Assembly (NCBI GenBank): GCA_030141605.1
Contig: JAQGDQ010001122.1
Span: 1 to 61,069 of the forward strand
Source: Tubiluchus corallicola
Taxonomy: Eukaryota > Animalia > Priapulida
DNA: 61,069 nt
Reading direction: 5' to 3'
Shown: one piece after another, positions 41,601-47,600 of the stretch
How positions within the stretch are numbered: the first letter of the stretch is position 1
Layout of the letters: every line of letters begins with the position of its first letter
Notes under the pieces: generated by a model
Told to the model about the DNA's origin: nothing
The model's database searches: none
What the model saw: the letters and a program-made list of their open reading frames with translations, nothing else
Program-made: the position numbers and the translations under genes

Positions 41601-44600
41601 GTACTATTTACTCCTTTTTTAAAACACTTAAAAATGTAATAGGACGACTATTTTGGTTATATCGCAATTGTTACCCCTCAATGCGAATTTTAGCTTTTCA
41701 TTATCATACAAGTTAATGAAATTTCTATTGATGATCGTTATATTAATATTAAAATAAAAAGTTTGTCTTAACCGGTTGTAGAAGGAGCTATAAAAAACAA
41801 AAAATAAATTTCTTCTTCTACCTGTTACCTGTCACAGTGTTGAAAGATTCTCATATTCACAGGGAATTTAGGTTGTTGGTATCGTCCTTTTTCTATTAGT
41901 AAGTTATATAATATGACAATCATGTCAAGATGGGAATTAGTTCATTCATTTTCCAGCTACAAATTAACCAATTCATTCCCTCATTTCCTCCATTATTCTC
42001 CCATTCCCTCTCTCTTTCTTACTCACACACACTCTCTCCTTTCACTCTGAAGCACTTACAAGAAAGTGAATAAATGTAGCAGCTGATTTTGTAAATTCGA
42101 TAAATTATCTAACTAGTTTCAAGAGAGACTTTATGAACTTTGTCAAAATGCACAAAAAAACGATGTCGAGTTAAAAATATAGGCAAAGCTACAAATCTTA
42201 GCAGAAGTTATTCATAATGGAATGAAGGAAAGTAAGCCAAAATAATAAACAGACAACACCAAATGACAAGTAATGCAATGTAAATACTGGCATTTCAATT
42301 TATTCTGAAGCGCTTTATCACAAAAAATTCTCTTCTGCTCACTTCTTCTACAGCTCAATGCTAACTAGCGCACATGCATTGAATTTTTCAATCTAAATTC
42401 AACCAAAAACAAAAGTGAAAAAGTCGGAATGCGTCTGAATTTAATCCACGGATGTTTAAATTATAAGACCAATGCAGCATCTACTAAAACACACATAAAC
42501 TAGGAAAATCGTAACTTAATCCCAATAGACCACCAACCAATTAAGCCTTTTCAAGTATTGATATATCTAATTAATTAGTCATAAAATTAATTTCAAAATT
42601 GTTATGTCATAGTGAGTTTTTTCTGTGCACTGATACTTAATATTGATAATTCCACATATCTATGAGAACGGGGAAGGGACAAAGCGAGAAAGAGAGAGAG
42701 AGGAGAGAGAGAGATAGAGAGATAGAGAGATAGAGAGCAGAGAGAGAGAGCGAGAGCGAGAGCGAGAGCGAGAGCGAGAGCGAGAGAGAGAGAGAGAGAG
42801 AGAGAGAGAGAGAGAGAGAGAGAGAGAGAGAGAGAGAGAGAGAGAGAGAGAGAGAGAGAGAGAGAGAGAGAGAGTGAGAGAGAGAGAGAGAGAGAGAGAG
42901 AGAGAGATTATCTCACTGCAGAGTAAGAACGAAAAAAATCTTAGGGATAAATAATGATTTTAATAGCTTTTACTGCTTCTTTATTTTCTCAATTAAAGAA
43001 ATACCTACACGGTTGCATCTTTTTTTACTTTTCGCCAAAAATGATGCAATTTTGGAAAATTTAATATTATAGTTTTAAATTATAGATTTAATCATTGGTT
43101 AACTGTTTCATCACTTACTAACCATGTAGTTTGATTAGACATTGCTTTTACAGAATGTACAATTACTCATCATGTATATCCATATAATGTTCTTAGACTG
43201 TCATTGCTGTAAGTTTATTTACAAAGCTTGTTCACTTACATAAAGCCTGATTTGCACTCCAACAGACTACAAATAACTTTCTAGCCACAGAATTCCGTAA
43301 AAGTGCTCAAGTGTTTTCGAGATTGTTTGAAACCCTTTCTGCTTTGTAAAAAAAAACCCTGGAAATGCTGGTTCTCTCTAACATGCAATTTCAGGGCAAC
43401 TGTAGCAGCAGTTACTACTTTTTTGAAAGTTTCACAATCAACAGAATTGTATGTAAAACAATTTCAAACATTTTTAAAACTGTTTGTTCCAATCAGACAG
43501 TCACTTTGCTGTTAGGTAGAACAATGGATAGAATGCAAATTTTTATAGATTTTCTGCAGTGACTTCAACAATTTGTAGCAAATAAGGAATCATATCTTGT
43601 TTTAACTCCTTCAGGGCCGCACTGTTCAAAATAAGTATTATAAGACCAATGATTTTTCTGCTACTGTACGAGTACAGACATAACTAAATGATTACAAATT
43701 AGGTACTGTCCTATTTAGGAGATAGCCATCCAACCAGGCTATTTGTTTAAACATTTATAAGTGATTTAATTGCATAAAATTAAAAAAAACACAACCCTCT
43801 TCAGGCACCCCAGCTCAGCTTATTAAGTAGCTTAGTCTGGTGTACACTTGCGTGATCGTACACACTAATTTAGTGATCGCCTGCTTCCTACAGGCCAAGC
43901 TGTGCAGTGTTCTGAGTTATTCCAGCAAAAACCAATGAATCAGCCAAGGACAAATTAAGTTTGTTTCATTTTTTAACAGGAATTTCTCTTTAAAAATAGA
44001 GTAGACTTGAAGATAAAGTGTATCAGAGTGTAGTGTCTGGATAGATGAAATTTTGTACTGTACTTTGTACGGTGCAAACACTGCAGTTACTGAAAGCTTT
44101 TTTCAATTTATTTGTCAAAAATCAATTTTTAATTTGTCTGAAGTAAGCAAGTGCATTTCATATGAAATTTTGCATGAAACTCCATTCTGTGAGGAGTAGA
44201 AACCCACAAAAATAATCGAATACAATGTGATGAGCGCATTGCGCTTTTTCTTGCAACATGCTTAGTGTTTGGTTTTGGTACTCTTTGGGTTAATGGGATG
44301 AATAAAATAAATGCATGTCTATGTGTGCATTGAGCCAATCTAACTGACAAAAAAATCAATAAAAGAACACATTGGCAGAGGGAACAAAATATTCATTTAT
44401 TTCGTGAAGATTGCATTTTTGAGATTTATGTAATTTTGTTTACTTAAATTAACGACAAAGATAAACAAACAAAAATGGCAACGTAACAGACATGTTCATC
44501 GTGACCCAAACTGCAGAACTCTTGACACGGTACACTCTGCAAATCCAGGGATATTTATCACAGTATGATTTACAATGCTCCCACTTTCCGTCCTCCCCAT

Positions 44601-47600
44601 TGCAGCACTTTATGTACAAATCCTGGCCAGCACTTGGAGAGTGGTTCCAGTCTTTAGCGCAACCATAACACACACGTACGTGAGCCTTCCCGGGTTCTGT
44701 TTTCGGCGTACACTTGCCTATATCTTTGCCTATTAACTTTTTTACCGCTGCTTTCGTGCACGACTCAGTTGGTGTTAGCAGTGTAGTCAAGCACAAGCAT
44801 AAATAAAAAGCATATTTTGCAAATGCTTCCATCTACAAAATAGACAGTAAATTTAGTACATATTACATCACAAAATGTTGCTATTTAGTTCAAAACACTG
44901 GACGTAAGCAAATATTAAGATGTTGTTCAAAAATTCTATGTGTAAATAATTATTATTAGATTACTATGAAATTGAAAAAATTAAATAAAAGTGTAAAGAA
45001 GAATAAGAATTTTAACAATTTTTGCTATCTTCTTGCTTGCCTATTTAAAAAACTCCCATATTACATTCCATGGTTTTTGTCAAAAATGATACAATTTTGG
45101 AAAACTGAATGTTCTACTTTTTAATCATCAAAGCACTTTTTTAAAGCTTGGATATACATATTGCATATACAACTTTATCCATCTATCTCCGAAAATCAGG
45201 ATAAGTATATATGATTATCAGCTCTGAGGCTGTTTTTTTATACATGGAATGTATCCGGTAATCAGCTGTAGGATATATCTAATGAAAACGATTACAGCAA
45301 TACCAGAATTCATTTTGTTACATAACATCCATAGGTTAGATGGGGGGGGGGGTTATATCACGGAATTCACAGTTAGTTCCATTGTAAATTCAAACAGAAT
45401 GTGTTCACTGTTATTTTCATTGTAATTTTTGCATACTTACCTAAATGCTAAATTACAGTTCAACAAACTACTAACTTCCTTGCGGCATACGTCTGCAAAT
45501 GGCCTCTGATATTTCGCGTATTCTAAGACTCTTTCAAACTGATTTTGCATTGAACTAGGAGCTCGCGCACCAATACGCACTCGCAAGTGCAAGCGCAACA
45601 GAAAATTTCCTCGACTGCATATAATCGTTCTAACTTTCAGTCTACACGGTTTCCACAAAAGTCACACAATCAACAGAATCATTGTCTCCTTGTTTGAAAG
45701 CACATTCTAATTTTCTCAAAATTAATTCACTTGTTCTAAACAGAAAGTGTCCCATTCACTGTTAGACAAAACAATGCAAATTTTTACTGATTTTCGTTTT
45801 CGACATTAACCGTCTGTGACAAATAGAGAGTCATACCATGTCCACATGAAGATCTTTTTAACTGATTTATACTCCAACAAATAAAAAAGAACATTTCGCG
45901 TGTATAAACATGTATAAACACTGAGAAAGTCTTTGCTTTTTATGCATCGTAGAATGCTACAAACAACCAACATTTTGCTTAAATTTTAACACGTTCACGG
46001 AAGCAGACATCATAGTTATTCTTCCATGAAGCAACAATAGAAATGTAAAAGGGATATGCAGACAAAACCATAAAGTTTTTCAATTCAGCAGCTTTGGTTT
46101 AGAATCTGGAAGAGCCTACTAAGCAACTCTTTATATGACAAACAAAGCAAAAAGTAGCAACAGCTAATTAAAACATCAACACATGATAAATACATCAGAC
46201 ATGTTAAGAGAACCAAAATCTTAGCCAGTCTCCCACTGACAGCAATCCAATAGGTGAGGAATCACTTAATTGTACACTATTACACTAGAATTGTACACTA
46301 TAAATATGTAAATAAGTGTAGTGGTAATAATGTATATCTGCCCAGCTCTAATTTTACTGTTTGTTTACAGTTAAGAATTCAATAAAAATTGTTTGCCAAG
46401 ACATTTAAGAAGATACAACTTTCGCACTTATGTGAAATGTATTTGCAATAATGTTGTTACAACTAAAGTTCGTCTACAATCAAAGTATGTATTAAGAAGC
46501 CTCTGTACCTACTGTGTAAAATTTTACCCGTATAACCATACCGAAAAAGAAGAAAAAAGTATATGTAACATATACAGTTTAGAAATATTTTCACCTTCCA
46601 AAAATACATCTAGCAAGTAAGTTACATGTAGGTAAAGCTGTGTATAGGGTGTGATATGGTGGTAAAACTTTGAAGTAAGTTACATGTAGGTAAAGCTGTG
46701 TATAGGGTGTGATATGGTGGTAAAACTTTGATGTCGGTGATAGATCTTATATGCGACAAATTCAATTTTTATAATATTATTGCAGAAGTCTTTTTTATTA
46801 GCGTGGAAGAAGCGTCTGGTGAAATGTCATGGTGAATAAATTTGGTTGGAACGCTTTTGCTTCTGACGCCATATTTTAATGGAGATTTAAGAATCGTCAT
46901 TATTAAAAAGATGAATTGCTGACTGTCCTACCATGCGTCTGTCACAATCTGTATGCTCAATAACAAACAGACGATGTCTCACCATATGTCTGTCACAGTC
47001 TTTTATGCTCAATAACAAACAGATTATGTCCCACCATGTGTCTGTCACAGTCTTTTACGCTCAATAACAAACAGACGATGTCTCACCATGTGTCTGTCAC
47101 AGTCTGTTACGGTCAATAACAAACAGACGATGTCTCACCATGTGTCTGTCACAGTCTGTTACGCTCAATAACAAACAGACGATGTCTCACCATGTGTCTG
47201 TCACAGTCTGTTACGGTCAATAACAAACAGACGATGTCTCACCATGTGTCTGTCACAGTCTGTTACGCTCAATAACAAACAGACGATGTCTCACCATGTG
47301 TCTGTCACAGTCTGTTACGGTCAATAACAAACAGACGATGTCTCACCACGTGTCAGTCACAGTCTGTTACGGTCAATAACAAACAGACGATGTCTCACCA
47401 TGTGTCTGTCACAATCTGTTACGGTCAATAACAAACAGACAATGTCTCACCATGCGTCTGTCATAGTCTGTTACGCTCAATAACAATCTGTTACGCTCAA
47501 TAACAAACAGACGATGTCTCAACATGTGTCTGTCACAGTCTGTTACGCTCAATAACAAACAGACGATGTCTCACCATGTGTCTGTCACAATCTGTTACGG

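What the first reader, a model, noticed from the sequence alone, without database searches (positions are those of the whole stretch)
44449..44832. Nested same-strand gene encoding a secreted, probably GPI-anchored protein with a CHH/HAND-toxin-like cysteine frame
Seen: a clean 127-aa ORF inside the ~7-kb usherin intron (41180-48156). It has an acceptor immediately before ATG, an upstream donor (45440), a signal-peptide-like N-terminus, 9 Cys between residues 25 and 98, and a KSSA-spacer-hydrophobic tail. Known: centipede SLPTX3 toxins (e.g. Ssm6a) and related HAND peptides derived from CHH/ITP hormones have a C..CxxC..(F/Y)xxCC..(F/W)xxC frame. Here the frame is C41-x13-C55xxC58-x17-C76C77-x9-C87, with LYIKCC and KWEHC. 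Inference: a membrane-tethered member of a helical neuropeptide/toxin-like family, possibly an endogenous channel or receptor modulator (analogous to GPI-anchored Ly6 prototoxins), hosted in a sensory-cell gene. I do not recognise a named family with this combination; the similarity rests on Cys spacing only.
Basis: partly seen in the sequence, partly recalled or inferred. Interest (0 to 1): 0.85.

Follow-up and report, generated by a model that had tools for sequence, protein, structure and literature searches.

The report
Orphan surface-protein gene inside usherin intron
Inside a large intron of an invertebrate's usherin gene lies an intact reading frame with strong splice signals that is likely a separate small gene for a cysteine-rich protein predicted to be lipid-anchored to the cell surface; no relative was found, and the proposed kinship to centipede toxins and crab hormones is unproven and likely not real.

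Summary
Observation confirmed. The host is a usherin orthologue, and intron 48156-41180 holds no usherin exon. The 127-aa frame is likely a real two-exon nested gene. Its upstream donor ranks 1 of 460 GT sites in the intron, its acceptor 2 of 371 AG sites, and AATAAA follows the stop. A decayed tandem copy of its 5' half lies 2.0-2.2 kb downstream (new here). Rule-based scans give a signal peptide and a GPI site at S105. No homologue was found.

The CHH/HAND link is weak. The cysteine fit is matched by 784 of 20,000 shuffles. C3-C4 spacing is 17 rather than 12, there are three extra cysteines, and there is no coding intron. Two low-confidence models put the CxxC segment in a strand, although one has helices where HAND has them.

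Best reading: a lineage-restricted GPI-anchored disulfide protein with Ly6-like architecture, not a Ly6 member. No transcript was seen. Interest modest.

The parts
44449..44832 (-). Single coding exon: 127-aa ORF plus stop
   Evidence: no coding intron needed
44761..44832 (-). Predicted signal peptide, residues 1 to about 20-24
   Evidence: 11-residue hydropathy peak 2.2; (-3,-1) cleavage candidates after residues 16-28, with 20-24 most plausible by inspection; rule-based, SignalP not available
44518..44760 (-). Predicted mature domain, residues 25-105: 81 aa, 9 Cys, 16 K+R against 8 D+E, one N-glycosylation sequon (NHS)
44452..44517 (-). Predicted GPI-attachment signal after omega site S105 (S-S-A, spacer, hydrophobic tail, no cytosolic part)
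   Evidence: only candidate of 4 with a small omega+2 residue; 22 residues follow it; 22-residue uncharged run
44833..45440 (-). Predicted 608-nt intron of the nested gene
   Evidence: donor at 45440 ranks 1 of 460 GT, acceptor at 44833 ranks 2 of 371 AG in the host intron, matrices from 35 approximate host exons
45441..45540 (-). Predicted non-coding first exon (start inferred), with a 5-codon upstream ORF
   Evidence: TCAGTT initiator-like site at 45542-45537, the only match in 45800-45440, in a CpG-richer patch; uORF at 45488
44396..44401 (-). AATAAA poly(A) signal, 47 nt after the stop codon
42910..43600 (-). Decayed tandem duplicate of the nested gene's 5' half (upstream region, first exon, donor at 43239, part of the intron); no coding exon found
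   Evidence: core 45841-45360 vs 43600-43150: 289 of 422 aligned columns identical, score 128 against a maximum of 51 in 276 control windows; further collinear block 45128-45074 vs 43083-43029, E 2e-10
42686..42907 (.). (CT)n microsatellite where the duplicate's homology ends and its coding exon would be expected
48157..48351 (-). Host usherin exon upstream of the intron (first part of an FN3 repeat)
41043..41179 (-). Host usherin exon downstream of the intron (second part of the same FN3 repeat)

Best explanation
This is likely an independent, lineage-restricted two-exon gene nested on the same strand in a usherin intron, whose product is predicted to be an 81-residue, basic, disulfide-bonded domain attached to the outer cell surface by a GPI anchor, where it would act by binding a neighbouring membrane protein or ligand. 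Shown: the open frame, the strong splice sites, the poly(A) signal, the host intron and the decayed 5' duplicate. Inferred: transcription from its own promoter near 45540, splicing 45441 to 44832, signal cleavage near residue 20-24, and transfer to GPI at S105. Also inferred: four disulfides with one spare cysteine. Most speculative: a role as a non-enzymatic surface binding partner, working like GPI-anchored Ly6/quiver proteins without belonging to that family. Nesting in usherin is most simply use of a large intron; nothing here ties the two genes functionally.
For: Gene: donor 1 of 460 and acceptor 2 of 371; 0.04 such frames expected per 7 kb and 0 of 80 simulated frames with this architecture. 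The upstream region and donor are kept in register in a tandem duplicate. One 620-base contig of run X1 covers the whole exon with 0 differences, while 7 other listed contigs in 36-55 kb carry 3-16 each; this is weak, as it may be a shared haplotype or the source sample. Architecture: omega site and tail. Language-model neighbours of the whole protein are unnamed 117-152-aa clusters (0.85-0.87), and the nearest named cluster is quiver (0.76, QVR on 27% of 60 members; leads only, recognition 2169 is below the 2300 mark). Precedent for the mode of action: quiver/sleepless regulates Shaker channels and nicotinic receptors (PMC4735452, abstract).
Against: No transcript, orthologue or paralogue was seen, so selection on the frame is untested. 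The codon signal is not frame-specific. Signal and GPI calls are hand rules, not trained predictors, and the tail is only moderately hydrophobic (mean 1.46) and ends in Cys-Arg. The quiver likeness is not seen for residues 22-105 alone, so it probably reflects the two hydrophobic ends. No binding partner is indicated by any search.
Confidence: 0.55

Rival explanations
1. A naturally GPI-tethered member of the CHH/ITP/HAND helical fold: C41, 55, 58, 76, 77 and 87 would form the 1-5, 2-4, 3-6 disulfides, with extra cysteines added, and it would modulate a channel or receptor in cis.
For: Six consecutive cysteines follow the Ssm6a order. The second model has helices at 70-77 and 84-93, over the CC and KWEHC segments. 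W84 sits three residues before the sixth Cys, like Phe49 of Sco-CHH-L (PMC8541221 passages). CHH-fold peptides occur in molluscs and annelids with only 14-26% identity to solved members and a different disulfide number (PMC10501145 passages), so sequence silence does not exclude it.
Against: The fit is matched by 784 of 20,000 shuffles (514 of 5,000 with any subset) for one chosen frame. C3-C4 spacing is 17, against 12 in both Ssm6a and Sco-CHH-L. There are three extra Cys (25, 91, 98). Only 1 of 3 core aromatics maps (G48 and N78 at the others, by my cysteine register). There is no coding intron, whereas a phase-2 intron is in nearly all CHH genes. The CxxC segment is a strand in both models, and 8 of 47 residues from C41 to C87 are Gly or Pro.
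Confidence: 0.12
2. A secreted or shed cationic defence or signalling protein: the hydrophobic tail would be a cleaved propeptide or a weak membrane anchor, not a GPI signal.
For: Net charge about +8, nine Cys, a single coding exon and a local tandem duplication are common in fast-evolving defence peptides (own knowledge). The tail is short and ends in Cys-Arg.
Against: S105-S106-A107, a 7-residue spacer and a terminal hydrophobic stretch fit GPI rules. The only dibasic pair is K31-K32, with none before the tail.
Confidence: 0.15
3. A single-domain, GPI-anchored offshoot of a beta-finger fold (Argos/two-finger-toxin or eroded Ly6) that would bind a growth factor or receptor.
Confidence: 0.08
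4. Not a functional protein gene: a chance or dying frame in the intron, or a cryptic terminal exon of usherin.
For: No transcript or homologue was seen. The duplicate copy has no coding exon.
Against: Top-ranked donor and acceptor, a poly(A) signal and an intact frame coincide. Splicing the usherin exon onto this acceptor reads another frame and stops after 22 residues, so the 127-aa frame cannot be a usherin exon.
Confidence: 0.1

Closest known systems
GPI-anchored single-domain Ly6/uPAR proteins (quiver/sleepless PF17064, Lynx1, CD59, bouncer)
   Same: Signal peptide, one 60-90-residue cysteine-rich domain, GPI signal; similar size; nearest named language-model cluster (0.76).
   Different: Nine Cys in another order (CxxC in the middle, last Cys followed by Arg, not Asn); no intron in the coding sequence; no Pfam match.
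HAND toxins (centipede SLPTX3 Ssm6a, SSD609; spider Ta1a) and the CHH/ITP superfamily, including molluscan CHH-DREP
   Same: Order C, CxxC, CC, C over six consecutive cysteines; an aromatic three residues before the sixth Cys; helices over the last two segments in one model.
   Different: Spacings 13/2/17/0/9 against 9/2/12/0/8; three extra Cys; predicted GPI tail; no phase-2 coding intron; strands predicted at the CxxC segment.
Argos / two-finger-toxin (2FTX) proteins of protostomes
   Same: Small secreted disulfide-rich beta domain of similar length (about 65 residues in the E-superfamily).
   Different: Only a background-level structural score; the non-venom clusters described have two or three domains, and the passages read mention no GPI anchor.
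Octopus neuritin-like GPI gene nested in a MINDY intron (earlier scan note e1-8827333, unreviewed)
   Same: Small predicted GPI-anchored cysteine protein nested in a large intron of an unrelated gene.
   Different: Antisense, six cysteines, neuritin-like by its own note; it did not come up in the look-up by this sequence.

Membership tests
CHH/ITP/HAND superfamily | Six cysteines in the family order, bonded 1-5, 2-4, 3-6 | tested here: inconclusive
   Order present in C41-C87, summed spacing deviation 10; 784 of 20,000 shuffles fit as well; three extra Cys; pairing cannot be read from the tools' output
CHH/ITP/HAND superfamily | Twelve residues between the third and fourth Cys (Ssm6a C18-C31, Sco-CHH-L C26-C39) | tested here: not met
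   17 residues, C58 to C76 (reference positions). Two reference peptides only.
CHH/ITP/HAND superfamily | All-helical fold | tested here: inconclusive
   Single-sequence models at pLDDT 58 and 57 disagree: mostly beta or strand-helix-helix-strand; both have strands at about 52-58 and 96-102
CHH/ITP/HAND superfamily | Phase-2 intron in the coding sequence | tested here: not met
   Coding sequence is one exon. Intron after Cys4 in all CHH genes but three nematode cases (PMC2841656); mollusc CHH-DREP has a phase-2 intron upstream of CxxC. HAND toxin gene structure not seen.
CHH/ITP/HAND superfamily | Three core aromatic residues (Phe16, Phe44, Phe49 of Sco-CHH-L) | tested here: not met
   By cysteine register the positions are G48, N78, W84: 1 of 3 (reference; the mapping is mine and ungapped)
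CHH/ITP/HAND superfamily | Profile or sequence similarity to known members | tested here: inconclusive
   No Pfam family and no family member among PDB sequence matches at E up to 10; true members can share only 14-26% identity
Ly6/uPAR (quiver, Lynx) | Ten-cysteine signature with Asn after the last Cys | tested here: not met
   Nine Cys; C98 is followed by Arg (definition from PMC6600238)
Ly6/uPAR (quiver, Lynx) | Signal exon plus two domain exons with phase-1 introns (typical) | tested here: not met
   Single coding exon
Argos / two-finger-toxin fold | Domain of two short beta-hairpins | tested here: inconclusive
GPI-anchored proteins (class) | N-terminal signal peptide | tested here: met
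   Hydrophobic core and (-3,-1) sites by hand rule
GPI-anchored proteins (class) | Small-residue omega site, spacer, terminal hydrophobic tail without a cytosolic part | tested here: met
   S105-S106-A107, 22 residues to the end; rule-based, rules recalled from own knowledge
GPI-anchored proteins (class) | Trained predictor call or PI-PLC release | not testable with these tools
   SignalP and NetGPI are not among the tools; needs experiment

The most novel reading that the evidence does not exclude
A natural 'tethered toxin': a CHH/HAND-fold neuropeptide derivative that gained a GPI anchor and extra disulfides, lost its coding intron, and sits in the usherin gene of a probably non-arthropod invertebrate, acting in cis on a channel or receptor as Ly6 prototoxins do for the three-finger fold. 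It would be a second hormone/toxin scaffold with an endogenous membrane-bound form.
Probability: 0.12. Interest if true: 0.75.

Novelty: new variant of a known kind. Interest (0 to 1): 0.32.

Why it matters
As most likely read, this is a good unannotated-type gene model: a small predicted GPI-anchored protein with a cysteine frame that matches no family tested. It adds a candidate new small surface-protein family and a case of local duplication and decay inside a host intron. That is useful but ordinary: orphan cysteine-rich surface proteins and nested genes are common in invertebrates (own knowledge). It would matter much more if a confident structure showed the CHH/HAND fold.

Tried and rejected
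Genome: none is held for this window, so paralogues elsewhere in the genome are untested; there are none in the window.

Homologue searches: 5 candidates and no hit at E<=1 among 69-223-aa proteins; 10 candidates and no hit at E<=10 among longer proteins. HMMER over 1.84 billion representatives gave 2 hits at E<=0.001; both are long repeat proteins (880 and 3,489 aa) without the cysteine frame and were rejected. In metagenome contigs, 34 pattern matches and none confirmed. Shorter proteins were not searched. Pfam: nothing for 4 forms of the protein. PDB sequences: only integrin alpha-E and SP140 at E 0.17-1, rejected. ESM Atlas: no named hit for residues 22-105.

Expression: no RNA holder listed; run X2 laid only on repeats near the locus, which says nothing about expression. 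Homodimer prediction for the odd cysteine: no answer.

A first loose cysteine-pattern shuffle gave 0.0006, but the pattern was drawn around this protein, so I replaced it with paper-given frames. Codon-usage test: not frame-specific. No remnant of the duplicate's coding exon at DNA or protein level. Usherin alternative-exon reading: wrong frame. Recalled likenesses to the Dickkopf N-terminal domain, beta-microseminoprotein, RECK/DB and WAP cysteine frames come from no call and were not tested beyond the blank Pfam scan. Literature: 'usherin' + 'nested gene' + 'intron' gave 1 paper, unrelated by its listing.
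Full report
Host gene. The minus strand of the window carries FN3-coding exons. The largest exon finds usherins among named hits. A full-length oyster usherin (P0074) aligns as one collinear chain of 33 blocks, residues 2065-4760, from 60306 down to 2404. 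Residues 2698-2771 map to 48379-48158 and 2779-2816 to 41150-41037, and the two exons join in phase 1 into one FN3 repeat (48% identity to oyster 2709-2814). Over five joined host exons, identity is 45% to oyster, 48% to a gastropod (shorter overlap) and 38-40% to seven vertebrates; two further rows, a second oyster and an annelid, gave only 25-29% and are probably out-of-register repeats. The animal is an invertebrate whose phylum I could not fix.

The nested gene. Using splice matrices from 35 approximate host exons (sites picked semi-automatically, some perhaps wrong), the donor at 45440 is the best of 460 GT sites in the intron and the acceptor at 44833 the second of 371 AG sites. AATAAA lies 47 nt after the stop, and one TCAGTT initiator-like site lies 100 nt before the donor. 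A first exon from 45540 would hold only a 5-codon upstream frame. In 14 Mb of simulated intron there were 80 ATG frames of 120 aa or more, and none had hydrophobic ends with a polar middle (thresholds post hoc). The exon is GC-rich, but its codon score is not frame-specific. Joining the host exon to this acceptor reads another frame and stops after 22 residues. One contig of run X1 spans 44332-44951 with no difference, whereas seven other listed contigs in 36-55 kb have 3-16 differences each; nearby short contigs at 45272-45833 have 0-1. This is weak support at best. I put the gene at about 0.9 real, with no transcript seen.

The region 45841-45360 aligns with 43600-43150 at 289 of 422 columns, score 128 against at most 51 in 276 control windows. 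A further collinear block lies at 45128-45074 vs 43083-43029. The donor is kept in register (43239), the initiator-like site is not. Homology ends at about 42910, where a (CT)n run begins, and no coding remnant was found downstream. The gene was therefore once tandemly duplicated, and the second copy now lacks its coding exon, or the assembly lost it at the repeat.

The protein. Hand rules give signal cleavage near residue 20-24 and a single good omega site at S105, followed by a spacer and a hydrophobic tail with no cytosolic part. The mature part has 81 residues, nine cysteines, 16 basic and 8 acidic residues. Four searches found no homologue (details under Tried and rejected). The language-model search gave unnamed clusters of 117-152 aa at 0.85-0.87 and quiver at 0.76 for the whole protein, and nothing named for the mature part. 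That points to shared architecture rather than kinship.

The CHH/HAND idea. Ssm6a and SSD609 have C5, 15, 18, 31, 32, 41, bonded 1-5, 2-4, 3-6, and Ssm6a is all-helical (PMC7232367, passages). Sco-CHH-L has C7, 23, 26, 39, 43, 52 and core aromatics Phe16, 44, 49 (PMC8541221, passages). The CHH frame fits about as well in a different register (deviation 9; 349 of 20,000). The C3-C4 gap is 17 rather than 12, three cysteines are left over, and one of three aromatics maps. The coding intron that marks CHH genes (PMC2841656, passages; PMC10501145, passages and Data Sheet 10) is absent. Two single-sequence AlphaFold models (residues 24-105 and 35-103; pLDDT 58 and 57) both place strands at about 52-58 and 96-102. 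One is otherwise beta; the other has helices at 70-77 and 84-93. The structure searches are reported under Tried and rejected.

Other families. The Ly6 signature (ten Cys, Asn after the last, typically three exons; PMC6600238, passages) is not met. An Argos-like two-finger fold (bioRxiv 10.1101/2025.07.03.662903, parts 1-4 of 8) rests on one background-level row. I did not see that preprint's supplements, and the FASTA supplements of PMC10501145 could not be read; they hold sequence sets against which this protein could still be compared. PMC7560641 was read in passages and PMC4735452 as abstract and outline. Searches were seen as listings.

How it likely works. Shown: gene anatomy and sequence features. 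Inferred: it is transcribed from its own promoter, the product enters the ER, loses both hydrophobic ends, gains a GPI anchor and is displayed as a compact basic disulfide domain. With no catalytic motif and no cytosolic part, it would act by binding, either in cis to a membrane protein, as quiver does with Shaker channels and nicotinic receptors, or to an outside ligand. No call points to a partner or to co-expression with usherin.

Verdict. A likely real orphan gene of a known architectural kind, with an unassigned cysteine frame. Novelty: new variant of a known kind; interest 0.32. The tethered hormone/toxin reading is not excluded (0.12) and would deserve 0.75.

Noticed in passing
window 42910-43600 (-) vs 44960-45841 (-): Decayed tandem duplicate of the nested gene's 5' half, with the donor kept at 43239 and no coding exon; homology ends at a (CT)n run.
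   Followed up: yes
window 1-878 and 1123-2000: Perfect 878-nt inverted repeat at the window start, 244 nt between the arms; likely an assembly or read fold-back artefact, and host exons beyond 2404 may be missing for that reason.
   Followed up: no
window 46930-48140: 52-bp minisatellite, about 23 copies, starting 16 nt after the host donor in the same intron.
   Followed up: no
window about 43600-44260: A repeat on which hundreds of contigs of run X1 lie (summed depth over 1,000), between the intact gene and its decayed copy; probably a mobile-element fragment.
   Followed up: no
window 48157 to 44832 (-): If the host donor used the nested acceptor, usherin would end after 22 extra residues and could use the nested poly(A) site, giving a short secreted form; no evidence that it happens.
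   Followed up: partly
window 26400-31600 (-): The cysteine-rich, non-FN3 middle segment of usherin is conserved and collinear with oyster residues 3068-3362 over six exons.
   Followed up: no
window 36000-49000: Run X1 differs from the window at about 1-4% of positions in most listed contigs, including within a host exon near 36324-36526, suggesting high polymorphism.
   Followed up: no
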